A DNA stretch of 26,329 nucleotides from Candidatus Hodarchaeota archaeon (lineage in GTDB: Archaea; Asgardarchaeota; Heimdallarchaeia; Hodarchaeales; Hodarchaeaceae). Location: positions 1 through 26,329 of the forward strand of contig JAEOTC010000020.1 of assembly GCA_016840035.1 (NCBI GenBank). Reading direction: 5' to 3'. A program made the translations under genes and the position numbers. Below are positions 16 to 15,283 of the stretch, piece after piece. The first letter of the stretch is position 1. Each line of letters opens with the position of its first letter. The notes under the pieces were generated by a model, which saw only the letters and a program-made list of their open reading frames with translations, was not told where the DNA came from and made no database searches.

Positions 16-714
16 CTAATAAATTCTTGGGAGAAGGCGATACTGAACTTCTTCCATATACTCCTTATAACCAGGAAGGTGATCTATAAGCATTCTTTCC
101 TCAATTCGGATCCTAATTATTAGTATTATAGGAAAAAACCAAGATACGATAAATGATAAAAACGATCCTAAGGCTATTGGCAAACTGATCATCATAAGTA
201 TGAATCCGACATACATCGGGTGTCGAATATAGCGATAAGGGCCGGTTGTTATTAAATCATGATCTTTATGAATTACTAAACCTTTTGAGGCATATCTATT
301 AACCTGATTCACGTATGTGATAAAGATTAATGAGAATATCATTCCAATAAAACCTAAAATTTCTATTTCAAAGGTTATAACAATCGGAGAAATTGCTAAA
401 CCATGATCAATCCCTGGAAATAAAAGAATGAATAAGAAAACCAATGAGAGAAGAGCTAAAGATGTTTTATCAGGAAAAGATTTGGTATTTGGATCGTCAG
501 TAATATATTTTCCTCTTTTTACGAGGGTATCTGGATCTGTAATTAGATAATAAAGTACGTAAATTACGATATAGCTAAGAAAGATAAAAATAAATAACCA
601 TCCTTCCAACCAAGTAAAGTCATTAGAAGGTGCAAATAACAACAATGCCATACCGGTAAAAAGAATCGGAACACCAATAATTACACGCAATATTATATTG
701 ACAAGAGGTTTCAT
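16..714 (-). CDS. Isoprenylcysteine carboxyl methyltransferase / PEMT-family membrane methyltransferase
   Basis: About 5 TM helices. C-terminal ICMT/PEMT motifs HDLITTGPYRYIRHPMYVG, RIEERML and YKEYMEEVQYRLLP. GAGGT SD upstream. Confidence 0.85.
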   Translation of the reverse strand: MKPLVNIILRVIIGVPILFTGMALLLFAPSNDFTWLEGWLFIFIFLSYIVIYVLYYLITDPDTLVKRGKYITDDPNTKSFPDKTSLALLSLVFLFILLFPGIDHGLAISPIVITFEIEILGFIGMIFSLIFITYVNQVNRYASKGLVIHKDHDLITTGPYRYIRHPMYVGFILMMISLPIALGSFLSFIVSWFFPIILIIRIRIEERMLIDHLPGYKEYMEEVQYRLLPRIY

Positions 715-1640: not shown

Positions 1641-2930
1641 TCATTGTAATGATTTAGTAAATTCTTCTAGAATATTAGAAGCTGTGACAAGATTGGGAGC
1701 GTAATTCCTAATGAACTCTACAGGATTCTTTTCGATCTCTAAGGATCTTTCCATATATTCATTTAAAATGAGGCCTCCATCATAGTCAACTGTTGATAAA
1801 CGAAGACAAAGATTCTTTCTTGGCATACCAAATTCAGAACCTGGTAAGCTAGCTAAGTTATATTTCTTTAGCAAATATTTCGCTAGCATCTTTGAAGTTC
1901 TTATTCCCATTTCTTTCAACGTTTTTTTGTGGTTATTCCAATCCGGAAATAAATAAAATCCCCCTTTTGGAGGTAAACATGAAATTCCAGCTTTTTCCAT
2001 ACGCTCATAGACATAATTAGTCATTATTTTATGAATCGCTGTGCATTTTTGAATGAAAGTAAGCATTTCTTTATCAGGAGTATACGCCTCAATTGCTGCA
2101 TATTGGATTGGGGAAGATGCAGAGGACCAAATCTCGCTAATAATGGATAAAATGGATCGTTTAACGTCATCATTTCTTTTAGGGAGTAAGAGAACCCCTA
2201 GTCGATATCCACCCAATGAACGATCTTTTGAGAACCCTCCGGTTATTATTGTCCCTTCAGGATAGAATTCTGCCATAGAATGATGATCTTGTCCATTATA
2301 ACTAATTAACGAATATATTTCATCAGAAATCACAATCACATTGTGTTTTCTTAGGATTGGGACTAAAGCCTCAAGTTGTTCTTTGGAGTATGATTGAGCA
2401 GTCGGATTACCTGGATAATTCAGTAGTAAAAGCTTCTGTGTGGATAATTCCAAATGTGTTTTTTCTAAGGCTGCTAATAGCAACGATGGAGTTAGTAAGT
2501 ATGAGTTTTCAGGGGATGTTTCAAGGAAAAGGACTTTTTTATGAACTAAATAGGCCTGATGTTGGTAACTTACCCAAGAAGGTGTTGGGAGTAAAAGTGG
2601 GCCTTCCAATGCAGCAATAGCATGAAAAATTAGTGATTTGCTTCCAAGAGCAACAATTACTTGTTTTGGTTTGAATTTTAATCCAAAAGCTTTCTTATAG
2701 AACACACAAATCTGTTTTCTAAGGGCAAGAAATCCCTGTGTGGGTGAATAATACTTTTTATCCGCATGAGTACAAAGTGCCTGTTTAACTCTAGGGTGTA
2801 CTGGAAAAGGAGATTCTCCAAATCCCATATGATAAATTTTTTGTCCTTTCTGACGTTTTTTAACCACTAGTTCGTTAATTGCTAGAGTAGCTGAGGGTTT
2901 TAGTTTCTTAATCTCTGGGACTATTTCCAT
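1641..2930 (-). CDS. PLP-dependent class I/II aminotransferase (aspartate aminotransferase-like)
   Basis: Motifs HMGFGES, GSK (subgroup Ib acidic-substrate Lys), NYPGNPT, SDEIY, GFSKDRSLGGYRLG (PLP Lys), PKGGFYLF, PGSEFG and LRLS. Confidence 0.9.
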   Translation of the reverse strand: MEIVPEIKKLKPSATLAINELVVKKRQKGQKIYHMGFGESPFPVHPRVKQALCTHADKKYYSPTQGFLALRKQICVFYKKAFGLKFKPKQVIVALGSKSLIFHAIAALEGPLLLPTPSWVSYQHQAYLVHKKVLFLETSPENSYLLTPSLLLAALEKTHLELSTQKLLLLNYPGNPTAQSYSKEQLEALVPILRKHNVIVISDEIYSLISYNGQDHHSMAEFYPEGTIITGGFSKDRSLGGYRLGVLLLPKRNDDVKRSILSIISEIWSSASSPIQYAAIEAYTPDKEMLTFIQKCTAIHKIMTNYVYERMEKAGISCLPPKGGFYLFPDWNNHKKTLKEMGIRTSKMLAKYLLKKYNLASLPGSEFGMPRKNLCLRLSTVDYDGGLILNEYMERSLEIEKNPVEFIRNYAPNLVTASNILEEFTKSLQ

Positions 2931-3099
2931 TTTTTATTTTCCTGCTCAATGTAAAGCATTTCACATTTGAGAGTATCGATATCGCTTCTGAAGTAGTATC
3001 TAACCCGTTACAACCCCTTATAAAAAGGTGATGAATGCTGATTTCGAAAGGATGGAGAAAAGAAGAATTTCAATTTTTCATGTCATTTCATTCATCTGA

Positions 3100-3115
3100 G
3101 AAATATTAATATTTC
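3100..3115. promoter_or_regulatory. Perfect 16-bp palindrome GAAATATTAATATTTC, candidate operator
   Basis: Self-reverse-complementary. Lies in the divergent aminotransferase/aminomutase intergenic region. Confidence 0.4.
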
Positions 3116-3214
3116 ACGGAATTCAGAAAGAAAATTAGATATTCTCCTTATAACTTGGATTTATGTCAAAATTATCTAATGATTTTTGAAAGTAAAAGGA
3201 CAGGAACATTAATA

Positions 3215-5029
3215 ATGTTAACAAGTACCGAAAAAATCAAGCCTAAATGGGAAAACTGTTGGAATGCTGATCCTGCAATCTATATGTTGCTTAAGAGAAG
3301 TAATACTGTAAATGAAGCCAGAGAAAAATTGCTACACTATTTGGAGGGACTAGAGTGGGCATATAGGAGAGATGTCACAGAAATTGCATCTTGGGATTAT
3401 ATTATACTCAAAGAGGCTGTTCGATGCTTGAAAAATATTATTTCTCCGCGTAATGAGAGACTAGCTCTTTGTTCCTCATTAGAATTGCTTTGGAAAGCTG
3501 CTGCTACAGGAGATGCAGAGGTCGAATATGGCTTTATCCAAGAATTTTATCATCTTTTCAACGCAATTAATGGGAATGCAAAAATTTATCCCCCTTTGTA
3601 TTTGGATAAATTGAGTATTCCTAATTTTGAAGGTCTTTATGGACAAGAAGCTAGTATCAAAAGATCAGACTACTTAGACCAGCTTTCGCAGAGTATGCAG
3701 TCCCGTGTTAAAAGATATCCAAGTGGATTTAATCCCGAGATTATCCAAGAGAGGATTCAACATAAAATAAAGATATTAGATGCATTAGGAGGGACTGAAG
3801 ATGATTGGATGGATTGGAGATGGCAATTTAAACATGTTTTCAAAGATTTGGATAACTTTGAAGTATTAAAAGACCTTATCGAATTAACTTCAGAGGAGGA
3901 GTCAGCTATACAGCTTGCTCTCGAGAATAACATACCTTTTGGAATCACTCCCCATTATTTACATCTAATGGACGAAAAACCAAATTCAAAAGATCTAGCT
4001 GTACGTAGACAAGTTATCCCACCTATTTCATATGTAAAAAAGATGATTGATGTTGGAGATGATCGCTCATCTCTTGATTTCATGCGTGAATCAGACACTA
4101 CTCCAATCAAGCTAGTCACTCGGAGGTATCCAAAGGTCGCAATTATCAAACCTTATGATTCTTGTCCGCAAATTTGTGTTTACTGTCAAAGAAATTGGGA
4201 GATCACTTCCCCATTTATGCCTAGAGCCATGGCTGATAAAAAAGACTTGGAAAATGCCTTAAATTGGTTTAAAGAGCATCCTGAGATTATGGATGTATTG
4301 ATCACTGGCGGGGATCCTTTAGTAATGTCAAATGATCGGATTAAATATATAATAGATGCTTTATCCAGAATTGAAACAGTTCGAAGCATTCGTATTGCCA
4401 CTAGAATACCCATTACTGTTCCAATGAGAATTACAAAGGATTTATGTGAGATTTTTGCGAAATATCAAGAAATAGGGAAGAGATACCTTAGCATGGTGAT
4501 CCATGTAGAACATCCGTATGAAATCACTTTTCATATGGCTGATGCGATTAAGAAGGTTAAGCAAAGTGAATTAGATGTATATAACCAACAGGTTTTTACT
4601 TTTTACAACAGTAAACGATTTGAAACTGTTGCATTAAGACTTAAACTTAAAGAAATCGGAATTGATCCATACTATAGTTTTAATATGAAAGGTAAAGATG
4701 AAATCAAGGACTATTCAGTTCCCATGGCTAGGATTTTACAAGAAAGAAAAGAAGAAGCTCGTCTACTACCTGGAATCTTCCGTGGTGATGAGCCAGTATT
4801 CAACGTTCCTTTTCTAGGGAAGAATCACTTACGTGCATGGCAAGATCACGAATTAATTTCCATACTTCCTGATGGAAAAAGAATGTACTCTTTCCATCCT
4901 TGGGAAAAGAATCTGGCGAAAGTAAAACCTTATCTCTATGTTGATGTTAGTATTCAATCCTACCTAGATAAATTATTAGAAGCGGGTGAGGATCCATCTG
5001 ATTATCGAAGTATCTGGTACTACTACTAA
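3215..5029 (+). CDS. eam: KamA-family radical SAM/PLP aminomutase, long form; probable glutamate 2,3-aminomutase
   Basis: WMDWRWQ, FGITPHY, RRYP, CPQICVYCQR (CxxxCxxC plus Arg), LITGGDPL, RIATR and PLP Lys in VPFLGK. Lys (PYYSFNMK) and Asn (PVFNVP) sit where lysine aminomutase has Asp293/Asp330. The ATG at 3215 with AGGA upstream is preferred over the TTG at 3155. KamA family about 0.95 certain; substrate call about 0.7. Confidence 0.8.
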   Translation: MLTSTEKIKPKWENCWNADPAIYMLLKRSNTVNEAREKLLHYLEGLEWAYRRDVTEIASWDYIILKEAVRCLKNIISPRNERLALCSSLELLWKAAATGDAEVEYGFIQEFYHLFNAINGNAKIYPPLYLDKLSIPNFEGLYGQEASIKRSDYLDQLSQSMQSRVKRYPSGFNPEIIQERIQHKIKILDALGGTEDDWMDWRWQFKHVFKDLDNFEVLKDLIELTSEEESAIQLALENNIPFGITPHYLHLMDEKPNSKDLAVRRQVIPPISYVKKMIDVGDDRSSLDFMRESDTTPIKLVTRRYPKVAIIKPYDSCPQICVYCQRNWEITSPFMPRAMADKKDLENALNWFKEHPEIMDVLITGGDPLVMSNDRIKYIIDALSRIETVRSIRIATRIPITVPMRITKDLCEIFAKYQEIGKRYLSMVIHVEHPYEITFHMADAIKKVKQSELDVYNQQVFTFYNSKRFETVALRLKLKEIGIDPYYSFNMKGKDEIKDYSVPMARILQERKEEARLLPGIFRGDEPVFNVPFLGKNHLRAWQDHELISILPDGKRMYSFHPWEKNLAKVKPYLYVDVSIQSYLDKLLEAGEDPSDYRSIWYYY

Positions 5030-5081
5030 TTATCTTTTATAATGAATCAAGAAGAATCAAACTGAAGACTGTGGAATGTAA

Positions 5082-5471
5082 ATGGTAGAAATAATAAAAA
5101 CTGATAAGGGGACTCCCCCTGGTGGATATTATAGTCAAGGAGTGAAAGCTGGAGATTTTGTTTTTATTGCTGGACAAGTTGCGGTCGATCCAGAAACTAA
5201 GAAATTAGTAACCGAAAATATCGAAGCTGAAACAAATCAAATCATGCAGAATCTCTCTGCAATTGCGAAAGCAGCTGGTACGTCTTTAGAACACACCGTT
5301 AAAACTACAGTTTTTTTGACAGATATGAGACTGTTTGAGAGATTCAATAAAACTTATGCAAAATATTTTCCTAAAAACCCTCCTGCACGGTCAACAGTTC
5401 AGGTTGGTCCCTTACTAAGAGAATTTCACGTAGAAATTGAAGCTATAGTTTATTGTCCTCCTAAATCTTAA
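5082..5471 (+). CDS. ridA: RidA-family reactive intermediate/imine deaminase
   Basis: YSQGV, FIAGQV, VKTTVFL, FNKTYAKYF, PARST (catalytic Arg) and VEIEAIV. Confidence 0.92.
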   Translation: MVEIIKTDKGTPPGGYYSQGVKAGDFVFIAGQVAVDPETKKLVTENIEAETNQIMQNLSAIAKAAGTSLEHTVKTTVFLTDMRLFERFNKTYAKYFPKNPPARSTVQVGPLLREFHVEIEAIVYCPPKS

Positions 5472-5478
5472 GAAATTC

Positions 5479-6711
5479 TTATTTCTTATTTTTTATAGGT
5501 ATTAACGTAAGAAATGCCCCCATCGAGAAAATGATTCCAAATATAAATATCAGAAGATAATTACTTGGAAATAGTGTAATTAAAAAACCATCTAATGTTG
5601 GTCCTACAGCTCGTACAACATTTACGGTCAACATGAACCCACCAAAGGCACTACCAATTTGTATTGTGTTTTGAGCTAAGAAACTATTCGTAACTGGCCA
5701 GAAAATTGCATTAACAACAAATAATACCATATATAACAAAAATAACACTAAAGGAATATTGAAAACAAAAATTCCAAAAATTACAATGCCTTGAAGAGCG
5801 GATGCAAACAAAAGAGCAGTTTTCTCAGAGAACCTATCTGCCATACTACCACCCAATAGTTGACCTGAAGCTCCGAATAGATGTGAAACCCCAATAAATA
5901 AAGCGGCATCAGAGATTTCAAACCCCTTGATTTCAGAAAGGAAAGGTGCAAGTATAAAGTTAATCATTCCCCATGTTAGGGACATTAAAAACATAAATAC
6001 AAATATTATTAATAAATTGGAGTTTATCTTAAATTTTAGGTTAGAAGTCAGAATATTTCCACTATTCTTTTTATAATTGACTTCTGATTTAATTCTTGGG
6101 GATTCATGTCTGGCAACAAAAACCCAAAACAACAAACTTAAAAGAAATAACGGAAACGACCACATTATATATATTTCATGCCAAGTCATGACATCTATTA
6201 AGAAAAAAACAGAAATCGGTCCAATTGAAGATCCAATTGTACCTCCAACACCGTGAATACCTAAAATTCTGTTTAAATAAGCAGAATATTCTCCTTTTTC
6301 TTCATTTTTGTAGGCTGAAGTTACCCATGATAAACCAGGTGGATGATAGAGTCCCACTCCTAATCCTACCAGGCTAAATCCAAAGGAAACACCAATGAGG
6401 GAGGGGCCCACTAATCCAATAATGAATGCACCTGAGGCACTAAGGATTAAGCTCAAACACATCATCTTACCACGTTGAATATGATCTGATAACCATCCGA
6501 ATAGAGGTGCTGGTAAACCTGCAGCTAATGTTCCAATTGTACCAATGGTTCCTAGACCAATCCAAGTATATTCCCCTAAGTTTAGGTCTTCTCCAACCGT
6601 AAGAACTAGCACTGGAAAAATAAAATAGGGGATTTCAACTGTGAGGTGAACAAGAAATGCAGAAACAAGGCTAGACCTTGCAGATAGTGTCTTCTTATAA
6701 GGAATAGACAT
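5479..6711 (-). CDS. MFS transporter
   Basis: About 12 TM helices, motif A twice (GWLSDHIQRG, GSMADRFSEK), GLYHP. Starts 15 bp after the LivG-like gene. Confidence 0.9.
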   Translation of the reverse strand: MSIPYKKTLSARSSLVSAFLVHLTVEIPYFIFPVLVLTVGEDLNLGEYTWIGLGTIGTIGTLAAGLPAPLFGWLSDHIQRGKMMCLSLILSASGAFIIGLVGPSLIGVSFGFSLVGLGVGLYHPPGLSWVTSAYKNEEKGEYSAYLNRILGIHGVGGTIGSSIGPISVFFLIDVMTWHEIYIMWSFPLFLLSLLFWVFVARHESPRIKSEVNYKKNSGNILTSNLKFKINSNLLIIFVFMFLMSLTWGMINFILAPFLSEIKGFEISDAALFIGVSHLFGASGQLLGGSMADRFSEKTALLFASALQGIVIFGIFVFNIPLVLFLLYMVLFVVNAIFWPVTNSFLAQNTIQIGSAFGGFMLTVNVVRAVGPTLDGFLITLFPSNYLLIFIFGIIFSMGAFLTLIPIKNKK

Positions 6712-6726: not shown

Positions 6727-7608
6727 TTAATAATCTGCCCCTAAATAAGCCTCAATTACTTCTTTATTAGTTTCTATTTCTTTAGGAGTACCTTGAGCAA
6801 TGATTTTTCCTCTGGCCATTACATAGATTTCATCGGAGTAATTAAACACTACATCCATATTATGTTCAATAAGAAAAATCGTAGAGTCTGACTTGAGCTC
6901 TAAAATCTTGTCCATAATCTTATTCCCCAAAGTAGGATTTACTCCAGCCATTGGTTCGTCTAATAGGATTAATCGTGGAGCAGTCATCAGCAGTCTACCA
7001 ATGGCAAGAAGTTTTAATTGTCCTCCGGATAGTTCTTCCCCTAATTGATCACGGATGTGAGTAATCTCAAGGAAATCTAGTATCTCAAGTGCTTTCAAAA
7101 CATTTCGACGTTCCTCTTCCCTTATCTTCCTTTTACGGAAAAATATGTTGAAAAAACCTTCTCCTGTTTGTTTATGAGGGGCAACAAGTAGATTTTCCAA
7201 TACCGTTAACTTTGGCCAATTACGAGTAGTCTGGAATGTTCTGAGCATGCCTGTTAATGCTGCTTCATGAGTGTTCATACCATCAATCCGAACATCCTCA
7301 AATTGGACATGTCCAACATCTTCATGTTCTACCTTTGGAGATCGATCAAATCTTTGAGAAAACCAATTGATAATGGAATTACTGTATTCCTGCGATTCCA
7401 TCTCCTCGTGTTCCTTGGGAATTGTTTTTTCTAGCCACGCTGTAACTACATTGAAAAAAGTTGTTTTCCCAGAGCCATTAGGGCCAATTAATGAGACTAG
7501 TTTGTTCTTTGTTACTAATATACTTGCACCTTCAAGAGCTCGTACGCCTCCGAAGTATTTATGAAGATTTTGTGCATCTAAACTTAAATTCTTTTCAGTT
7601 GAAGTCAT
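6727..7608 (-). CDS. livG: Amino-acid (Liv-type) ABC transporter ATP-binding protein, LivG-like
   Basis: Walker A GPNGSGKTT, RTFQ, LSGGQ, LLDEPMAGVNP, IEHNM and C-terminal VIEAYLG. About 34-aa insertion after Walker A. Confidence 0.9.
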   Translation of the reverse strand: MTSTEKNLSLDAQNLHKYFGGVRALEGASILVTKNKLVSLIGPNGSGKTTFFNVVTAWLEKTIPKEHEEMESQEYSNSIINWFSQRFDRSPKVEHEDVGHVQFEDVRIDGMNTHEAALTGMLRTFQTTRNWPKLTVLENLLVAPHKQTGEGFFNIFFRKRKIREEERRNVLKALEILDFLEITHIRDQLGEELSGGQLKLLAIGRLLMTAPRLILLDEPMAGVNPTLGNKIMDKILELKSDSTIFLIEHNMDVVFNYSDEIYVMARGKIIAQGTPKEIETNKEVIEAYLGADY

Positions 7609-8985
7609 TTAAGCACCTTCCTTAGCCGGAGCTTTATCTTCTTCGTCGATCCTTTCTCTCTCTGTTAAACTTTGTCTTCGACTCACGGCTAAATCTGAAT
7701 CCTCCCTCTCTTCGGTAGTAAGTAGCTTTAGATACTTCTCATTATCCGTTTTCGGTTCCCGAATTAATCCAGCGGGTTTGAAGAGAAGAAATAAGACCAA
7801 AATTATACCTAGAATTACGAATCGAAGATTAAATGGGTTTATAAAAACATCTAATTGCAGAAATTCCAATATTGGGCCTAGAAGAGGAGTATCTGGACCA
7901 AAGTAGAAGCTGAAATTTTCCTTAACAGCATCTACCTGACCAGCACGCAAAAACATCGTCACTAGTGCTGTTCCAGCAAACGCACCTTTACTATTCCCTA
8001 ATCCACCAATTATAATGAACATATATAGTTGAAATGTTAAGGCAGGTCGAAATTCAGCTGCTTCAAAAGCCCCAAAAGTTGTAGCATACATGACACCAGC
8101 TAAACCAGCTAATAAGGCAGCTACGGTTGTAATTTGCCAGCGAAAGCGCGCAACATCCTTTCCTACAGAGGTTACCGTGATATCATCCTCACGAATCGCT
8201 CGAATGGTTCGACCATAAGGTGATTTCCGAATTTGTTGAACAAGCCAGTAAGTCAATAGACTGATCAATAAAAATACCCCTACTAATAGGATTTCCCATA
8301 AGAAGACATTCCCCCATGTAAAATCAGTAACTTTCCAACCAGCAGGTATCAGGTTAGATCCAAGTAATGAATCAAATAATTCTATTGGTATTATTATAAT
8401 TCGGATAATGAGAATAGTTACTCCATTAAAGGGCGTTAGGTCGATTACTTGATCGAAGAACCCGGTAAATTGGATTTTAAACTTGTTTGTTATTACCTGA
8501 GTATTAGTTCCCGCTGGAGAAAGTACCCATAACCATCTTTTTTCATATGCTAGCATAAGACGGATAATTTCTCCTCCAGCAATTGTCATAATTGCAAAAT
8601 AGTCTGCACGCAATTTCACTGTAGGGATTGAGATGAAATATCCCACAACAGCAGAGAGAAGCAGTGCCAATAATACCGCAATTGGAAAAGGAACACCCCA
8701 TTCACTATAGAGGAGAGTAGATGTATATGCACCAATTGCAAAAAATCCCACTTTACCGAAATTTGGTAGTCCCATACTCCCCACTTCAAGATCAAGACTT
8801 ATTGCACCTACAAAAAAAACCATTATAGTTGTTAGTGTCCCTACTATCCATGTTCCTCTAATATCGATCCCAAACAAAAACGCATATAAATATAGTATTA
8901 AAATCGGGACAGCTAAAGCCAAACCAATGTATAATTCTGATCTTCCTTCTACTAAGTTACCCACACTTTCCGAATTTTTCTTCAT
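7609..8985 (-). CDS. livM: Liv-type ABC permease, LivM-like
   Basis: GLPNFGKVGFFAIGAY, LRADYFAIMTIAGGEIIR, SPYGRTIRAIRED and IIGGLGN. Confidence 0.9.
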   Translation of the reverse strand: MKKNSESVGNLVEGRSELYIGLALAVPILILYLYAFLFGIDIRGTWIVGTLTTIMVFFVGAISLDLEVGSMGLPNFGKVGFFAIGAYTSTLLYSEWGVPFPIAVLLALLLSAVVGYFISIPTVKLRADYFAIMTIAGGEIIRLMLAYEKRWLWVLSPAGTNTQVITNKFKIQFTGFFDQVIDLTPFNGVTILIIRIIIIPIELFDSLLGSNLIPAGWKVTDFTWGNVFLWEILLVGVFLLISLLTYWLVQQIRKSPYGRTIRAIREDDITVTSVGKDVARFRWQITTVAALLAGLAGVMYATTFGAFEAAEFRPALTFQLYMFIIIGGLGNSKGAFAGTALVTMFLRAGQVDAVKENFSFYFGPDTPLLGPILEFLQLDVFINPFNLRFVILGIILVLFLLFKPAGLIREPKTDNEKYLKLLTTEEREDSDLAVSRRQSLTERERIDEEDKAPAKEGA

Positions 8986-9006: not shown

Positions 9007-10074
9007 CTATACCCGAGCTCGTGTTGCCTCCACACTTCCATAGATACCTTGAGGCCTCACAAGTAAAACAATGATAAGGACCACAAATGCAATTGCATCA
9101 GCATATGCAGGTGCAAAGGTTACAGTAAACCCAAGCGTCTGTTCAATAGTATCTTCGAGTCCATTTGGTTTCTGGATTTCGGTTAAAACGATTAGAGCGA
9201 TTTCTCTACTAAAAGCTATAATAAATGCGGCCACGATCCCTCCTCGGAACGATCCGACTCCTCCAAGGATGACAACAGTGAATATAGGAAGAAGTAAAAA
9301 GAATCCATCAAGCGAACTAAAGCGAGCTTGAGTAGCACGGACAAATGAAGCCCCCATTCCTGTTATACCTGCTGCCAGAAACCATGTGTAAAGTATAATT
9401 CGTTTTGTATTAATTCCGCACACATCAGCAAGTTCAAAAGAATCAGAGGTAGCTCGCATGGCAATACCAAATTTAGTTTTCTTGAAAACATAATCAATAA
9501 CGACTACAGTCAGTATACTAATGATAATAATCAGAAGTTGAAAACTAGTAATAAAGATTCCTTGACTGCCAAAGATTGGATGTCTTCGAATAAATTGAAG
9601 CTTGATATCAAAATTAAGATTAAATGGTAACGAAGGTGTACTTGTGCCTCCAAGTCCATGTTGAGGGAAATTGCCGAAAATCATTGCTAAGAAATTCCGA
9701 ATAATAAGCCCTATACCTATTGAGGCAACGGTAAAAGATCTCGAAGAGGCATCGAAACTCCGTAATCTACCATAAACAAGAACTTCTCCTAGTACTCCAA
9801 TTATTCCGACCATCACAAATGCAAAAGTAGCTTGAATAAACAAATTATTGATGAGATGTTCTCCTGTAGTATCCCAAGGGATCGCAAACGTTAGAATTTG
9901 TAAAACCCACCAAGACATGAACATCCCTGCGGTAACAAACTCAGCATGTGCAAAATTTGAGAATTTTAAAACAGAATACACCATATTTAGACCGATTGTC
10001 AATATGATTAAGGTTCCTGCATAAATTAAAGCCAAGCCAGTATGACTAAATATGTCAAATGAAAAGAGTACCAT
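9007..10074 (-). CDS. livH: Liv-type ABC permease, LivH-like
   Basis: GLNMVYSVLKFSNFAHAEF, TKFGIAMRATSD, VILGGVGSFRG and LLVRPQGIYG. Confidence 0.9.
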   Translation of the reverse strand: MVLFSFDIFSHTGLALIYAGTLIILTIGLNMVYSVLKFSNFAHAEFVTAGMFMSWWVLQILTFAIPWDTTGEHLINNLFIQATFAFVMVGIIGVLGEVLVYGRLRSFDASSRSFTVASIGIGLIIRNFLAMIFGNFPQHGLGGTSTPSLPFNLNFDIKLQFIRRHPIFGSQGIFITSFQLLIIIISILTVVVIDYVFKKTKFGIAMRATSDSFELADVCGINTKRIILYTWFLAAGITGMGASFVRATQARFSSLDGFFLLLPIFTVVILGGVGSFRGGIVAAFIIAFSREIALIVLTEIQKPNGLEDTIEQTLGFTVTFAPAYADAIAFVVLIIVLLVRPQGIYGSVEATRARV

Positions 10075-10092: not shown

Positions 10093-10851
10093 TCAAGTAT
10101 TATTTTCGTTCCTGTCTCTAACTCCTAGATAGAGTTTTCTTATCTTATCTTCAGCTAATAATTCACTAGCTGGACCTGTAGCTGCTACCTCACCAGTGAC
10201 TAGTACATATCCCCGATCTGATAACTCTAGGGATCTTCTAGCTCGTTGTTCAACAAGAAGGATAGCGATTCCTAGCTCTTTCTTTAGAGTTACAATTAGT
10301 TGTAACATTTCCTCCGCAATGTTTGGTTGAATTGCTGCGGTAGGCTCGTCTAAAATTAACATATCGGGTTCAGGCATTAATGCACGTGCTAGTGCAAGCA
10401 TTTGTCTTTCTCCACCACTAAGTAAACTTGCTTTCTGATCCATTCGCTCTCCTAATATTGGGAAAAGAGCAACCATTTTATCGATGTTCTTACTATAATC
10501 TGCATCCCATTTCTTAGTATAGAATCCCATCTTCATATTTTCTTCAACAGTCAAACTGGGGAAAACGTTGGCTAATTGAGGAACATAACCCAAGGGAATA
10601 CCTGTTCTAATTATTTCATGGGGTTGAAGGTGACTTACATCGTGATCACGAAGGAAAACTTGTCCTGAAAACATTTTAACAAGGCCTATCATGGTTTTTA
10701 TTAATGTGCTTTTACCACTACCATTAGGGCCTATTATTGTAACAAGTTCATTTTCATTTACGTGAATATCGATTCCATTGATTACTTGAAGCTTCCCATA
10801 ACCAGAAACTATGTTTACTCCCCGCAAAACTGTTTGACTCATAAAAAACAT
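10093..10851 (-). CDS. livF: Liv-type ABC ATP-binding protein, LivF-like
   Basis: SGYG, GPNGSGKST, GYVPQ, LSGGERQMLA, ILDEPT and LLVEQ. Alternative start at ATG 10842. Confidence 0.9.
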   Translation of the reverse strand: MFFMSQTVLRGVNIVSGYGKLQVINGIDIHVNENELVTIIGPNGSGKSTLIKTMIGLVKMFSGQVFLRDHDVSHLQPHEIIRTGIPLGYVPQLANVFPSLTVEENMKMGFYTKKWDADYSKNIDKMVALFPILGERMDQKASLLSGGERQMLALARALMPEPDMLILDEPTAAIQPNIAEEMLQLIVTLKKELGIAILLVEQRARRSLELSDRGYVLVTGEVAATGPASELLAEDKIRKLYLGVRDRNENNT

Positions 10852-10952: not shown

Positions 10953-12341
10953 TTACTTTCGTCGTTTTCTGATTATGACTAAAACTCCTCCAACAAAAAG
11001 GAGACTTAGATAACCAAATCCTGGAGCACCAGCTCCAGCTTCTTTCTCTAGCGTGACTACGTTATCAGCAATACTCCATTCCGAACCATCAGCTAATTCA
11101 AGCAGATCGGTGTCATCTAGAATAGGTGAAGCGGTAGTTGCACCAGAAGGAATATCATATGTTCCAAATGAAGTGTAAGTTTCGTCTTCTAACTGTACAT
11201 AGTCATAGCGACCGACAACTTCTCCAAGGGCGTTGAATACGATATTACCTGACGCACCAGGATGAGTAACATCGTATAAAGCAGCTAATAAGTCATCACC
11301 ATCAACAGAATCAGCGGCAGCCAATCCTTTCGCTGCGACATACACTGCATCGTATGCAAAAGGTGCATATGAGTTGAAGTGAGCGCCACCACCTTGACTG
11401 CGTGCGGGGCCTTCTAACCAGGCAGAAGCGGCGTCATACCATGTGTCATTAAAAGTTTGATATCCAGCTGCGGTTATAGGAGCGGGTGTTGTCCCAATTT
11501 GCATTTGCATTGCTGATTTAACATCATCATCCGTTGCGAATGTGGCTGTAGTTGACCAACCATCAGTCATCAACCAGGGGATATTATCAATTCCCAATTC
11601 GTGAGCTTTCTTCATACATGTTGCTGCATCAACATCGATAAAGTTACCTACAACAAACTCTGGGTCTGCATCTTTTATTGCTTGGACTTGAGAAGAAACA
11701 TCAGTTGCTCCAGCATCAAATTGTTGAGCTGTGGCAATTGTACCATCCCAATTCTGATCGAATATGTCAATCAGTCCAGTTCCATAGCTATCACTAGTAG
11801 AGATAGTTGCTCCAGTTTCCCAACCAAATTTCTCAACTAAATCTGCAATTGCTTTTCCTTGATCAGCATCTGAGGCTGCAACTCGCATGAAGTATGGATA
11901 CAATGTTCGATCACTTAATGCTGGTGAGGAGGAAGCATAGGATATTTGTACAATCTTTTGAGGAGTTAATTCTGTTGCCATGGCAGCGCTTACACTACTA
12001 CCAGAGGAACCAATTACAATATCAGCTCCCCAGCTGATCAGTGTTTGGGCTGCAGCTGTTCCTCCAGCGGCACTATTATCGTCGTCTTGGACATTCGGAA
12101 GAAGGGTTGTTTCTTCAGGGAGAATTCGTGAAGGTCCTGATTGATTGTTAATTTCGGCAATCGCAAGTAAAAATCCGTCTCGTCGATCAGGTCCTGCATC
12201 AGGCCGTTGAACTATTGGAAACACGCCTCCAACTCTAACTTCAGCTGGTAAAGCACTGGTTTTTGCTTTTGTTTCAAAAGTCATAACCGACAATACCATT
12301 ACTGCTAATAGAAGAAGGGTTAATTTTTGTCTTTTCATCAA
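10953..12341 (-). CDS. ABC amino-acid substrate-binding protein (ANF-receptor/Venus-flytrap fold) with signal peptide and PGF-type C-terminal anchor
   Basis: N-terminal signal peptide. Motifs VGGVFP, AIAEIN, VIGSSGSSVS, QISYASSSPALSD, YPYFMRV, AYDAVY and GASGNIVFN. C-terminus APGF-TM-RKRRK. First gene of the liv operon. Alternative start at ATG 12338. Confidence 0.9.
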   Translation of the reverse strand: MMKRQKLTLLLLAVMVLSVMTFETKAKTSALPAEVRVGGVFPIVQRPDAGPDRRDGFLLAIAEINNQSGPSRILPEETTLLPNVQDDDNSAAGGTAAAQTLISWGADIVIGSSGSSVSAAMATELTPQKIVQISYASSSPALSDRTLYPYFMRVAASDADQGKAIADLVEKFGWETGATISTSDSYGTGLIDIFDQNWDGTIATAQQFDAGATDVSSQVQAIKDADPEFVVGNFIDVDAATCMKKAHELGIDNIPWLMTDGWSTTATFATDDDVKSAMQMQIGTTPAPITAAGYQTFNDTWYDAASAWLEGPARSQGGGAHFNSYAPFAYDAVYVAAKGLAAADSVDGDDLLAALYDVTHPGASGNIVFNALGEVVGRYDYVQLEDETYTSFGTYDIPSGATTASPILDDTDLLELADGSEWSIADNVVTLEKEAGAGAPGFGYLSLLFVGGVLVIIRKRRK

Positions 12342-12707: not shown

Positions 12708-14129
12708 ATGAACAAAACAAAGGAATTTCTCTTCATTCTAATCTTCTTCAGTATTCTTCATACTGGGCAAATTCTTGGACAGAATTCGATTAAATTAATA
12801 GATTTTTCTGAAAATAAGTTACTCTCAACAAGTGATTCTCCGTATACTCATCATGTGGAACCTACAATTGCTCTAAGTGATAATGGAATCATTTTTGCAG
12901 GATGGAAAGAGGCCTACACGCACAATGGAGGAGGAGTGCGAGTTAGCTTTTCTAAATCATTAGATAATGGACAAACTTGGTCTACACCATTTAATATGCC
13001 ACATTTCATACCAGATACTGGCCAATCCGATCCGTGGTTAGTCTGGGATGATGGAAGTCAAAGTTTGTTCTATACCTATTTAGAATTTGATCTTAATGGG
13101 CCTTTGGGAAAGAGTTTTTCTCAGATGACTGTTGCAAAAAGTATAGACTATGGCGAAACTTGGAGTAAAGTAACGGCTACGTATGGAGTAGGTTTTGCAG
13201 ATAAAGAGACTATGACAGTGAGTAATGACGGAACACTCTATGTAGTTTATGATGATATAAATATGACCTCTGGAGCTACTTATGTACGTTTAACTAGATC
13301 TGATGATGGTGGTAGTACTTTCAATGAAATAAGTACTATCGCTGATTCTATCTCAAATCCAATAGATCATCTTGCTCCTTACATCACAACGGACAGTAAT
13401 GATAATGTCTATGTTGCTTGGCTATGGTTTACAGATGGTATGTGGGGGGATATTTATGTTACCTCCTCAAGTGATCAAGGACAATCATTTAGTAATCCAG
13501 TTGATATCAACCAAGAAAGCGAAAATGGGACATTCGAAACTTCTATTGACCAACGTCCAACAAAAGGATCAATTCCTGTTATCCGTTTTGATCCAAACGG
13601 CCGACTATATGCAATCTGGGCCGGTAGATATGTGGAAAATGGTCTTTGGGATATCTTCATCAGATTTTCAGATGATCAGGGGTTGACTTGGAGTGAGCGA
13701 TATCAAGTCAATCCTAATAGCGCTGGGAATCAATGGATGCCAGATCTTGATATAGACTCTCAAGGAAATGTCCATGTAGTTTATTATGATGACAATGGGG
13801 GACCATCCTTCAAACCATATTATCGGATACTAGAGTTTCCAACAACAGGAGAACCGATATTTAGTGACCCAATGGATATTTCAAATGGAATTTCTACATC
13901 AAATACGTTCACAAGACCAGGTGATTACTTTACAATCCGACTTGACGCTCAAGATTTACCTCATGTCGTATGGTCGGATGGTAGGAATGATGAGATGGAT
14001 ATTTACTATGCACACGGTCTTACTTCTGATGATAAATCAGAAACTACGGCTAAAAAATCTTCGTTCAATTTTCCTGTCTTAATGCTCCTACTAGGCATTG
14101 TCCTGATCAATAATAGGAAAAAAAGGTAG
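12708..14129 (+). CDS. Secreted, membrane-anchored BNR/Asp-box beta-propeller (sialidase-fold) protein
   Basis: Signal peptide, five Asp boxes (SLDNGQTW, SIDYGETW, SDDGGSTF, SSDQGQSF, SDDQGLTW), C-terminal GDY motif, Thr/Ser linker, TM and RKKR tail. GGTGA SD. Confidence 0.85.
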   Translation: MNKTKEFLFILIFFSILHTGQILGQNSIKLIDFSENKLLSTSDSPYTHHVEPTIALSDNGIIFAGWKEAYTHNGGGVRVSFSKSLDNGQTWSTPFNMPHFIPDTGQSDPWLVWDDGSQSLFYTYLEFDLNGPLGKSFSQMTVAKSIDYGETWSKVTATYGVGFADKETMTVSNDGTLYVVYDDINMTSGATYVRLTRSDDGGSTFNEISTIADSISNPIDHLAPYITTDSNDNVYVAWLWFTDGMWGDIYVTSSSDQGQSFSNPVDINQESENGTFETSIDQRPTKGSIPVIRFDPNGRLYAIWAGRYVENGLWDIFIRFSDDQGLTWSERYQVNPNSAGNQWMPDLDIDSQGNVHVVYYDDNGGPSFKPYYRILEFPTTGEPIFSDPMDISNGISTSNTFTRPGDYFTIRLDAQDLPHVVWSDGRNDEMDIYYAHGLTSDDKSETTAKKSSFNFPVLMLLLGIVLINNRKKR

Positions 14130-14521: not shown

Positions 14522-15046
14522 TTATGATATCTGTCGTAATACCTTTTGAACAATATCCTGAAAGATTAGGGGGATAACTTTCCCTCCAAATTTTGCTGAA
14601 GCTTCATAGAAGCTAGATCCTTTGGATCTGGCATATCTTTGTCCGTCAATTTGTTTGACCTCTCTTCGTTCAGCTAAATCAATCTTATTTCCAATAATCG
14701 AAATAACTTTATCCTTCCCCGCTACTTCCTGATATTCTCGAATCCATCTATTCAAATCGTTTAAAGTATCAGGTCGAGTTATGTCATAAACAGCAAGACA
14801 ACCTAAGGAGCCTTCAAAATAGGTTCGTCGCAAACTACCGAATTTTTCTTCTCCAGCTGTATCCATGAAAACCAAACGAATGGGTTTTGCATCAATGATA
14901 ATCCCTCGCTTAACAGTAATATCTACTCCCAGAGTCGGTAAATAATCTTCGGAGAATGAATTTTCTGTATACCTCCGAATAAGAGAAGTTTTGCCAACAG
15001 CAAAAGTACCCACAGAATTGAGTTTGATAATTACCTCGTTGGACAT
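14522..15046 (-). CDS. Rab-like small GTPase (Ras superfamily, eukaryotic signature protein)
   Basis: G1 GTFAVGKTS, G2 YLPTLGVD, G3 DTAGEE, G4 NKID, G5 EASAK, and RabF-like AVYDIT. The ATG at 15046 follows a GGAGG SD. Confidence 0.92.
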   Translation of the reverse strand: MSNEVIIKLNSVGTFAVGKTSLIRRYTENSFSEDYLPTLGVDITVKRGIIIDAKPIRLVFMDTAGEEKFGSLRRTYFEGSLGCLAVYDITRPDTLNDLNRWIREYQEVAGKDKVISIIGNKIDLAERREVKQIDGQRYARSKGSSFYEASAKFGGKVIPLIFQDIVQKVLRQIS

Positions 15047-15283
15047 CAAAAACTCCTCCAACACACCTATTTTTCTTTAGTGTTAAAAGGAATTCCAAAT
15101 GATGAGAAAATGCTTCGGAATTTAGCTCGAAGTCGATGAATTCTATTAAACCATCAATAAATCGTAATAAGTCTACTGCTTGATTATTCTTCCTGAGAAA
15201 AAACAGTTCACAATTGATAAGGCTATAAAATGACTATCAGGCGTTATAATTATAAAATATGTATGTTATCTTACTAAAAAGTG

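What the first reader, a model, noticed from the sequence alone, without database searches (positions are those of the whole stretch)
10953..12341. ABC binding protein closely resembles the Venus-flytrap domain of eukaryotic class C GPCRs
Seen, compared by eye with mGluR-type motifs recalled from memory: VGGVFP (LGGLFP); GPDRRDGFLLAIAEIN..ILP (GIHRLEAMLFALDRIN..LLP); VIGSSGSSVS (VIGASGSSVS); QISYASSSPALSD (QISYASTAPDLSD); YPYFMRVAASDADQ (YxYFLRVVPSDxxQ); FGW..DSYG (YNW..GxYG); TDGW (SDGW); AYDAVY; FNALGEVVGRYD (FNENGDAPGRYD). Equivalents of mGluR1 R78, S165, T188 (Ser here), D208, Y236 and D318 appear present, while K409 is Tyr. The gene nonetheless heads a normal ABC operon and ends in an archaeal PGF-TM-basic anchor. 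Inference: a membrane-tethered archaeal member of the clade that may have supplied the ligand domain of mGluR/GABA-B/GLR/ANP receptors.
Basis: partly seen in the sequence, partly recalled or inferred. Interest (0 to 1): 0.72.

Follow-up and report, generated by a model that had tools for sequence, protein, structure and literature searches.

The report
Asgard amino-acid binding protein, flytrap kin
This gene encodes the surface-anchored binding protein of an amino-acid ABC importer in a Heimdall-group (Hodarchaeales-like) Asgard archaeon, and its family is the nearest prokaryotic relative found here of the Venus-flytrap sensor domains of eukaryotic class C GPCRs, which bears on where those receptor domains came from.

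Summary
Window 10953-12341 (minus strand) encodes a 462-aa protein carrying every quoted motif. Pfam scores it higher as ANF_receptor (153 bits) than as Peripla_BP_6 (110). Both the single sequence and a profile of its family alone hit only mGluR/GABA-B chains in the top 60 of the PDB.

Functionally it is ordinary. It has a signal peptide, a type I binding fold (AF2 pLDDT 92.7), a short beta extension and a Heimdall-CTERM anchor. It heads a livF-livH-livM-livG(-MFS) operon that is syntenic in relatives.

The evolutionary result is the interesting part. In IQ-TREE (LG+C20) trees, its Heimdallarchaeia-restricted family (H) groups with a second Heimdall family (A2) and all sampled eukaryotic flytrap domains (100/100). 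E. coli LivJ/K and the LivK-like binding proteins most similar to it fall outside. Rooted with distant paralogs, the topology is H,(A2+eukaryotes). An all-archaeal clade is rejected (AU p=0.007); eukaryote monophyly is not (p=0.52).

The direction of transfer is not proven. Predicted structure alone does not discriminate between bacterial LivK and mGluR. The ligand is untested: an L-amino acid, possibly acidic. ANP receptors were not examined.

This scan reached the same conclusion earlier on other genomes. One 2026 preprint lists an Asgard-eukaryote "class C GPCR" structural cluster without giving detail.

The parts
10953..12341 (-). Gene for the 462-aa substrate-binding protein (H family). 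TTG start at 12341, or ATG at 12338; stop included.
   Evidence: ORF list and translation. Pfam ANF_receptor 153.4 bits and Peripla_BP_6 109.5 bits.
12261..12341 (-). N-terminal signal peptide region, about aa 1-27: basic KRQK, a hydrophobic run, then a low-confidence linker.
   Evidence: Read from the sequence. AF2 shows a helix at 2-20 and pLDDT below 50 at 22-27. No signal-peptide predictor was run.
11127..12248 (-). Two-lobed type I binding (Venus-flytrap) core, aa 32-405. Candidate ligand residues are R53, S115, S138, D158, Y186, D260 and Y325.
11037..11126 (-). C-terminal beta-strand extension, aa 406-435, between the flytrap core and the anchor.
   Evidence: AF2 strands 405-433 with pLDDT above 90. 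Structural alignments to mGluRs and AtGLR3.4 reach model residues 416-435, whereas bacterial SBPs stop at 392-405, SAR11_0655 (8wch, to 420) excepted.
10956..11030 (-). Heimdall-CTERM tail, aa 438-462: PGF-like motif, TM helix, basic RKRRK end.
   Evidence: NF045529 scores 21.3 bits on the protein and 26.1 bits, over the 24-bit cut-off, in the genome scan. 23 ORFs in this genome carry the tail above cut-off.
10093..10851 (-). LivF/UrtE-like ABC ATPase.
   Evidence: ABC_tran; LivF model 189 bits. Syntenic next to the SBP in relatives at 68-78% identity.
9007..10074 (-). LivH-like permease.
   Evidence: BPD_transp_2. Synteny.
7609..8985 (-). LivM-like permease.
   Evidence: BPD_transp_2; LivM model. 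Synteny.
6727..7608 (-). LivG-like ABC ATPase.
   Evidence: ABC_tran + BCA_ABC_TP_C; LivG model 199.6 bits. Synteny.
5479..6711 (-). MFS transporter at the end of the same gene string.
   Evidence: MFS_1. Conserved after livG in L022 and L024 at 71-74% identity.

Best explanation
The gene encodes the extracellular substrate-binding protein of a HAAT-family (LivFHMG-type, TC 3.A.1.4) ABC importer in a Heimdallarchaeial, Hodarchaeales-like archaeon.

Proposed mechanism. The protein is exported by an N-terminal signal peptide and held at the cell surface by a C-terminal Heimdall-CTERM transmembrane tail (inferred). Its two-lobed flytrap closes on an L-alpha-amino acid. S115, S138, D158, Y186 and D260 hold the amino-acid backbone. 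A clade-specific Arg53 may reach the side chain, so an acidic amino acid such as glutamate is a weak guess. The closed form docks on the LivH/LivM-like permeases, and the LivG/LivF-like ATPases drive import (inferred from family knowledge).

Evolutionary placement. The protein belongs to a family (H) found almost only in Heimdallarchaeia. In the trees made here, H is sister to a clade holding a second Heimdallarchaeial binding-protein family (A2) and all sampled eukaryotic Venus-flytrap domains: class C GPCR-type, multi-flytrap and other receptor architectures from animals, amoebozoans, archaeplastids and deep protists.

The simplest reading is that the eukaryotic receptor flytrap descends from a membrane-tethered Heimdall-type transporter binding protein.
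For: Function:
- Pfam and NCBIfam calls for the SBP, two permeases and two ATPases, lying in one minus-strand string with gaps of 0-101 nt.
- The same SBP-livF-livH-livM-livG(-MFS) order occurs in 10 or more related loci. A2 genes sit divergently beside the same operon type.
- The backbone-binding residues are conserved in every group.
- The tail is one of 23 Heimdall-CTERM tails above cut-off in this genome.

Kinship:
- ANF_receptor exceeds Peripla_BP_6 (153 vs 110 bits). E. coli LivJ/K score 86-90 vs 179-195, A2 scores 246-253 vs 113-132, and eukaryotic domains 199-209 vs 60-70.
- The PDB top 60 are all mGluR/GABA-B, both for the protein and for an H-only profile. The control P0170, a LivK-type Heimdall paralog group, hits bacterial LIV-binding proteins first.
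- Careful IQ-TREE: LivK-like split 100/100, H 100/100, EUK+A2 100/99.
- Outgroup-rooted tree: (H+A2+EUK) 100/100 nested within LivK-like diversity, and EUK+A2 99/94.
- AU test rejects an H+A2 clade (p=0.0069) but not eukaryote monophyly (p=0.52).
- Structural alignments give 25-26% identity over 360-374 residues to mGluRs, against 15-21% over 331-361 residues to bacterial SBPs.
- A scan of 185,579 species' genomes with motifs shared by eukaryotic and Heimdall sequences, confirmed against a eukaryotic query, returned 14 Heimdall/Hod/Kari/unnamed archaeal MAG loci and one weak Acidobacteriota hit.
- Eukaryote identities are named: Fabomonas, Rhodelphis, Flabellula, Cyanophora, Ancoracysta, Pigoraptor, Anneissia, Polypterus and Pocillopora.
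Against: - No ligand, transport or localisation data exist.
- A profile that included six LivK-like rows ranked bacterial SBPs first.
- Sampling is query-centred. All prokaryotic sequences in the trees were picked by similarity to this protein, and the reciprocal genome scan used only two motifs, so a bacterial lineage closer to eukaryotic domains could have been missed.
- A language-model look-up lists Thermoplasmatota and Verrucomicrobiota ANF_receptor/Peripla_BP_6 clusters as look-alikes.
- A few clade members of unknown origin were not identified (P0175, P0204, P0223, P0229).
- The outgroup branch is very long (3.8), and the AU groupings were defined after the tree had been seen.
- Distribution is patchy: 19 of 301 Asgard genomes and 4 of 20 in the same genus. 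One close homolog is labelled Methanoperedens.
- Arg53 is kept in only 12 of 33 eukaryotic rows.
- The neighbouring aminomutase matches the glutamate 2,3-aminomutase model far below its cut-off, 215 vs 650 bits.
Confidence: 0.72

Rival explanations
1. The protein is an ordinary LivK/LivJ-type branched-chain amino-acid binding protein. Its receptor-like motifs are only superfamily-wide conserved positions or slow evolution, and there is no special kinship to eukaryotic domains.
Against: The LivK-like set is separated at 100/100, and the outgroup attaches within it rather than to the long H or eukaryote stems. About ten signature columns are shared only with A2 and eukaryotes. The H-only profile and the single sequence place only class C GPCRs in the PDB top 60, whereas a LivK-type control does not.
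Confidence: 0.06
2. The kinship is real, but the direction is reversed. Heimdallarchaeia acquired flytrap domains from eukaryotes, once or twice, and recruited them as ABC binding proteins.
For: A2 groups with two GABA-B-like 7TM receptors (98/93) inside the eukaryotic set in the 96-row tree. Distribution within Asgards is patchy and limited to one class. A2 scores like a eukaryotic domain on Pfam and the PDB.
Against: H branches outside all eukaryotic rows, and eukaryote monophyly is not rejected (p=0.52). Both families sit in or beside complete LivFHMG operons, which eukaryotes lack, so a receptor domain would have had to re-acquire permease docking. The next relatives outward, the P0170/own-C57 group, are again Heimdall-type proteins with the same C-terminal tail.
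Confidence: 0.15
3. The protein acts mainly as a membrane-tethered sensor, signalling to a partner, rather than as a transporter component.
For: It has a C-terminal tether like the receptors. Family members exist without adjacent ABC genes (L020, L026). Others are fused to beta-helix or HxlR-type regions, or occur as tandem flytraps.
Against: This copy heads a complete, syntenic importer operon. No signalling domain or partner gene lies in the window. C-terminal anchoring of binding proteins is usual in archaea (general knowledge).
Confidence: 0.06
4. The gene is eukaryotic contamination, or the contig is mis-binned.
For: None beyond the receptor-like sequence.
Against: It sits on a 26-kb contig with prokaryotic operons and no sign of introns. 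About 90 homologs come from many independent Heimdall/Hodarchaeales MAGs, including contigs of megabase size. It carries an archaeal sorting tail.
Confidence: 0.01

Closest known systems
E. coli LivJ/LivK and other HAAT-family (TC 3.A.1.4) ABC substrate-binding proteins (Pfam Peripla_BP_6)
   Different: Only 15-21% identity in structural alignment. ANF_receptor outscores Peripla_BP_6. Separated from them at 100/100 in the trees. Anchored by a C-terminal Heimdall-CTERM helix rather than free in a periplasm. Carries a 30-residue beta extension that nearly all solved bacterial relatives lack in the alignments; SAR11_0655 (8wch) is aligned to residue 420.
Venus-flytrap domains of class C GPCRs (mGluR4/7/8, GABA-B1/2, CaSR; Pfam ANF_receptor) and the amino-terminal domain of plant GLR3.4
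   Same: These are the best PDB sequence matches: mGlu4 at E=1e-19, or 2e-39 with the family profile. Identity is about 50% over aa 108-208 and 25-26% over 360-374 structurally aligned residues, including the C-terminal extension. Signature columns are shared, and the groups fall on the same side of the 100/100 split.
   Different: No cysteine-rich domain and no 7tm_3 domain; only one Cys in the whole protein; a single C-terminal helix. The mGluR side-chain Lys (K405/K409) is Tyr here. The gene belongs to an ABC importer, not a signalling receptor.
Second Heimdallarchaeial binding-protein family ('A2', e.g. the Kariarchaeaceae protein P0111)
   Same: Archaeal, C-terminally anchored, and next to the same type of ABC operon. 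35-41% identical to this protein.
   Different: A2 is closer to eukaryotic domains: ANF_receptor about 250 bits, mGlu8 122 bits. The trees group it with eukaryotes rather than with H, and the AU test rejects H+A2.
Asgard-eukaryote 'class C GPCR' structural cluster listed in bioRxiv 10.64898/2026.10.28.762692
   Same: The preprint reports an Asgard-eukaryote-exclusive structural cluster annotated as a class C GPCR and not previously counted as a eukaryotic signature protein.
   Different: The text gives no members, domain or phylogeny, and no supplement is held. Whether that cluster is this family cannot be told.

Membership tests
HAAT-family ABC substrate-binding protein (Peripla_BP_6, TC 3.A.1.4) | Matches the Peripla_BP_6 profile above the curated cut-off | tested here: met
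   109.5 bits against a cut-off of 31.7.
HAAT-family ABC substrate-binding protein (Peripla_BP_6, TC 3.A.1.4) | Type I periplasmic-binding fold: two Rossmann-like lobes joined by a three-strand hinge | tested here: met
HAAT-family ABC substrate-binding protein (Peripla_BP_6, TC 3.A.1.4) | Encoded with LivH/LivM-type permeases and LivG/LivF-type ATPases | tested here: met
   All four lie directly downstream on the same strand. The order is conserved in related loci.
HAAT-family ABC substrate-binding protein (Peripla_BP_6, TC 3.A.1.4) | Binds an amino acid (or other small solute) and delivers it for ATP-driven uptake | not testable with these tools
   Only the conserved backbone-binding residues are seen.
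ANF_receptor / eukaryotic receptor Venus-flytrap clade (PF01094) | Matches ANF_receptor above cut-off and better than the transporter-type profile | tested here: met
   153.4 vs 109.5 bits. LivJ/K show the reverse, 86-90 vs 179-195.
ANF_receptor / eukaryotic receptor Venus-flytrap clade (PF01094) | Groups with eukaryotic receptor domains to the exclusion of LivK-like binding proteins | tested here: met
   100/100 split, and sister to EUK+A2 when rooted with distant paralogs. Sampling is query-centred.
Class C GPCR (receptor proper) | Flytrap joined to a 7tm_3 heptahelical domain, usually through a cysteine-rich domain | tested here: not met
   No 7tm_3 or other domain in Pfam. One C-terminal helix and one Cys. 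The protein is not a GPCR.
Class C GPCR (receptor proper) | mGluR-type glutamate side-chain contacts (R78 and K409 of mGluR1) | tested here: inconclusive
   The Lys position is Tyr325 in the HMM alignment to mGlu4. Arg53 is invariant in the family, but its equivalence to R78 rests on motif register and memory.
Heimdall-CTERM surface protein (NCBIfam NF045529) | C-terminal motif-TM-basic tail matching the model | tested here: met
   26.1 bits, over the 24-bit cut-off, in the genome scan; one of 23 such ORFs. The protein scan gave 21.3 bits, just under.
Heimdall-CTERM surface protein (NCBIfam NF045529) | A cognate sorting enzyme (exosortase/archaeosortase type) in the genome | tested here: inconclusive
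   PF09721 was not found in this 87%-complete genome. The processing enzyme for this tail is not known to me.
PGF-CTERM archaeosortase A target | Match to the PGF-CTERM model | tested here: not met
   The NCBIfam scan at E<=0.01 listed only Heimdall-CTERM for the tail.

The most novel reading that the evidence does not exclude
The ligand-sensing Venus-flytrap module of eukaryotic class C GPCRs, and of related receptors such as plant GLRs, was inherited from the Heimdallarchaeial lineage that gave rise to eukaryotes. There it already existed as a C-terminally membrane-tethered amino-acid binding protein of an ABC importer. Three successive outgroups of the eukaryotic domains (A2, H and the P0170-type group) are all Heimdall proteins. 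On this reading the flytrap would count as an Asgard-derived eukaryotic signature module rather than a bacterial gift.
Probability: 0.35. Interest if true: 0.8.

Novelty: new variant of a known kind. Interest (0 to 1): 0.62.

Why it matters
Since the early 1990s the flytrap domains of mGluR, GABA-B, CaSR and taste receptors have been said to derive from bacterial periplasmic binding proteins. The papers found here still say so.

If the nearest prokaryotic relatives are instead a paraphyletic series of Heimdallarchaeial binding proteins, two things follow. The module's origin moves to the archaeal parent of eukaryotes. It also supplies tractable, transporter-coupled, membrane-tethered "pre-receptor" proteins.

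Their ligands, closure mechanics and possible dimerisation can be compared directly with those of class C receptors. As a transporter component in its own organism, the protein is ordinary.

Tried and rejected
The contigs of P0155, P0127 and the unknown-origin clade members could therefore not be inspected.
- A metagenome scan for the P0155 locus found only two 39-residue fragments.
- The two "longer" homolog searches did not retrieve named animal mGluRs. Canonical animal receptors are represented only by Polypterus CaSR-like, crinoid and coral proteins, plus PDB scores.
- A 19-row alignment was too diverse for the genome scan, so a 7-row alignment was used instead.
- The N-terminal 78 residues alone hit nothing in the PDB, so R53 = R78 was not confirmed by alignment.
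- Foldseek and VIA cannot separate bacterial from receptor folds.
- The protein atlas gave only generic ANF_receptor/Peripla_BP_6 clusters.
- One MAFFT rerun timed out, and treekit's own alignment was used instead.
- The idea that the tail is PGF-CTERM was dropped.
- No exosortase-type enzyme was found.
- Complex prediction, sequencing-run and RNA tools were not used, because no claim here depends on them.
Full report
**What is there**

Window 10953-12341 holds one ORF on the minus strand. It starts at TTG 12341, with an ATG one codon later; the identical database protein begins at that ATG.

The N-terminus is a basic-then-hydrophobic signal-peptide-like segment. The C-terminus is a Pro-Gly-Phe motif, a hydrophobic helix and a basic RKRRK end.

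Pfam gives ANF_receptor at 153.4 bits and Peripla_BP_6 at 109.5 bits over the same residues. NCBIfam gives a weak LivJ-type subfamily match and Heimdall-CTERM on the last 25 residues. In a scan of the whole genome the tail scores 26.1 bits, over the cut-off, and is one of 23 such tails above cut-off. No PGF-CTERM match and no exosortase-type gene were found; the genome is 87% complete.

**Context**

Directly downstream on the same strand, with gaps of 0-101 nt, lie:
- a LivF/UrtE-like ATPase
- a LivH-like permease
- a LivM-like permease
- a LivG-like ATPase
- an MFS transporter

The order SBP-livF-livH-livM-livG, often followed by the MFS gene, recurs in loci from related genomes at 60-78% identity. 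The divergent BNR-repeat neighbour is also conserved in one of them.

Elsewhere the window carries:
- a Ras-family small GTPase
- a succinate dehydrogenase operon
- an aminotransferase
- a KamA-family radical-SAM aminomutase
- RidA

The closest homologs are named Heimdallarchaeota, Hodarchaeales or Hodarchaeota MAGs. The organism is therefore a Heimdall-group Asgard archaeon.

**Fold**

An AlphaFold2 model built on a 41-row alignment has mean pLDDT 92.7. It shows the two-lobed type I binding fold at residues 32-405. A confident four-strand extension follows, to about residue 433, then the terminal helix.

Foldseek ranks mGlu8, mGlu4 and CaSR first (E about 1e-24), with bacterial LivJ close behind (1e-22).

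- mGluR and AtGLR3.4 alignments reach model residues 416-435, whereas bacterial proteins stop at 392-405, apart from SAR11_0655 (8wch), which is aligned to residue 420.

Structure alone therefore says "same fold as both". The higher identity and the shared C-terminal extension lean towards the receptors.

**Sequence comparisons**

| Query | Best PDB matches |
|---|---|
| The protein alone | mGlu4, E=1.3e-19, about 50% identity over residues 108-208; all of the top 60 are mGluR or GABA-B |
| Profile of its family only (31 rows) | mGlu4 138.7 bits, down to GABA-B1 about 99 bits; no bacterial protein in the top 60 |
| Profile that also held six LivK-like rows | Bacterial SBPs first (180 bits), mGluR7/8 next (about 153 bits) |
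| Control P0170, a LivK-type Heimdall paralog group | A bacterial LIV-binding protein first (81.5 bits); mGlu8 at 54.8 bits |
| P0111, second Heimdall family | mGlu8 122 bits, GLR3.4 102 bits, CaSR 81 bits |

The mixed-profile result shows how sensitive the ranking is to profile content.

Pfam score pairs (ANF_receptor vs Peripla_BP_6) form the same gradient:
- LivJ/K: 86-90 vs 179-195
- this protein: 153 vs 110
- A2: about 250 vs 113-132
- protist domains: about 200 vs 60-70

**Relatives**

About 90 proteins at 44-69% identity form the family I call H. Nearly all named members are Heimdall or Hodarchaeales. One is labelled Methanoperedens and one Promethearchaeota. Below them identity drops steeply to 25-30% with LivK-like bacterial proteins.

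Variants of H include:
- a tandem double flytrap
- fusions to parallel beta-helix repeats
- an HxlR-type fusion

A full phmmer pass over 1.84 billion representatives gave 6045 hits. Beyond family H, the best hits are dominated by long, Cys-rich proteins with one to ten flytraps, many ending in a seven-helix block.

Identities of these hits:
- Pfam confirms ANF_receptor + 7tm_3 for P0155 and P0245, and ANF + Ephrin_rec_like + TRP for P0157.
- Source names place members in Fabomonas, Rhodelphis, Flabellula, Cyanophora, Ancoracysta, Pigoraptor, a crinoid, a coral and Polypterus ("CASR").
- A second set of single-flytrap proteins with archaeal tails (A2) includes Kariarchaeaceae proteins.

Among 301 Asgard genomes, 19 have a match. 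All but one are in the window's own class. They comprise 4 of 20 genomes in the same genus and 10 of 11 in the family that carries A2-type copies.

**Phylogeny**

A FastTree of 168 domains and a careful IQ-TREE (LG+C20+F+G4 PMSF, ultrafast bootstrap/SH-aLRT) of 96 domains agree:
- LivK-like proteins (34 rows, including E. coli LivJ/K) are one side of a 100/100 branch.
- H is a 100/100 clade.
- The eukaryotic domains plus A2 form a 100/99 clade.

Three clades in an unrooted tree cannot show who is sister to whom. I therefore added three distant type I binding proteins from the same genome as an outgroup. The results were:
- The outgroups attach inside the LivK-like set, not on the long H or eukaryote stems.
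- H+A2+eukaryotes stays 100/100.
- A2+eukaryotes is 99/94.
- The nearest LivK-like group (91/64) is the P0170/own-C57 group, again Heimdall-type.

AU tests do not reject eukaryote monophyly (p=0.52). They do reject an H+A2 clade (p=0.0069, delta lnL 26.9). The groups were named after the tree had been seen, so these p-values are optimistic.

The alignment columns behave as follows:
- G39, F41, R53, F57, Y135, Y148, W174, D184, N323 and Y334 are shared by H, A2 and eukaryotes but not by LivK-like rows.
- S115, S/T138, D158, Y186 and D/E260 are common to all groups.

**Reciprocal check**

I scanned one genome for each of 185,579 prokaryotic species with two motifs shared by protist and Heimdall sequences, confirming hits against the Ancoracysta protein. 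The scan returned 15 loci. Fourteen come from archaeal MAGs (ten titled Heimdall-, Hod- or Kariarchaeota, four simply 'archaeon'), at 26-34% identity, and one is a weak Acidobacteriota fragment. This search is limited to those motifs and does not exclude bacterial relatives that lack them.

**Mechanism**

Shown:
- family membership
- fold
- operon context
- conserved backbone-binding residues
- the recurrent sorting tail

Inferred:
- export and C-terminal anchoring at the cell surface
- flytrap closure on an L-alpha-amino acid
- docking on the permeases
- ATP-driven import

Ligand identity is open. Arg53 is invariant in H and nearly so in A2. It lines up, by motif register, with the mGluR arginine that binds the distal carboxylate. 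The mGluR lysine partner is Tyr here. The neighbouring KamA-family enzyme matches the glutamate 2,3-aminomutase model best, but far below its cut-off. I treat glutamate as a weak guess.

**Comparison with the known and novelty**

As a machine this is a HAAT-family binding protein. It is not a GPCR, because it has no 7tm_3 domain and no cysteine-rich domain.

What is unusual is its position. Together with A2, it is the closest prokaryotic kin found here of eukaryotic receptor flytraps, and the archaeal families are paraphyletic around the eukaryotic ones.

The papers found here still describe the flytrap as bacterial in origin. No paper in the library links Heimdallarchaeia with mGluR-type domains. 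One October 2026 preprint lists an Asgard-eukaryote "class C GPCR" structural cluster without detail.

This scan had already reached the same reading on homologs in other genomes. I re-derived it independently here.

**Limits**

- Sampling of prokaryotes was centred on this protein.
- Canonical animal mGluR sequences could enter only through PDB scores.
- ANP receptors and iGluR amino-terminal domains were not placed.
- The direction of transfer is argued from topology and operon context, not proven.

Noticed in passing
window 14522-15064 (-): A 180-aa Ras-family small GTPase (Pfam Ras 141 bits, also Roc and Arf), a typical Asgard eukaryote-like protein. It lies two genes from the binding-protein gene.
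   Followed up: no
window 12708-14129 (+): A BNR/Asp-box repeat protein transcribed divergently from the binding-protein gene. The same neighbour occurs at 71% identity in the Hodarchaeota locus L024.
   Followed up: partly
window 1641-5471: An aminotransferase (-), a 624-aa KamA-family radical-SAM aminomutase with a roughly 200-residue N-terminal extension (+), and RidA (+). The aminomutase's best specific model is glutamate 2,3-aminomutase, at 215 bits against a cut-off of 650. This may be an amino-acid or beta-amino-acid module next to the importer.
   Followed up: partly
G000:C57:63219-64595 (-), plus C217, C287 and C90: The genome holds a second, LivK-type binding protein: 30% identical to this one and 63% identical to P0170. 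It also holds three distant type I binding proteins. Several of these (C57, C287; C217 by the profile's tail positions) end in the same Heimdall-CTERM tail. The P0170-type group is the nearest LivK-like relative of the flytrap clade in the rooted tree (91/64).
   Followed up: partly
proteins P0097, P0098, P0241-P0244, P0090, P0115/P0116: Architectural variants of the Heimdall family: a tandem double flytrap (914 aa), flytraps fused to parallel beta-helix repeats (871-1113 aa), and roughly 650-aa forms. One of the latter is annotated with an HxlR-type DNA-binding part.
   Followed up: no
proteins P0104, P0099, P0125, P0139, P0145, P0156, P0158, P0160: Eukaryotic giant proteins of 2200-3900 aa, each with four to ten matched flytrap stretches (some partial); six of the eight end in a seven-helix block. 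One is from a crinoid. P0179 carries a TIR-like tail after a single helix.
   Followed up: no
protein P0155 (850 aa, JGI metagenome): An ANF_receptor + 7tm_3 protein annotated as a GABA-B receptor. Together with P0178 it groups with the archaeal A2 family (98/93) rather than with the other eukaryotic domains. Its contig could not be retrieved, so its organism is unconfirmed.
   Followed up: partly
window 16-714 (-): A membrane methyltransferase matching ICMT/PEMT and, more weakly (26.2 bits, under the 27-bit cut-off), ERG4/ERG24-type profiles (isoprenylcysteine carboxyl methyltransferase-like). This is another eukaryote-flavoured family.
   Followed up: no
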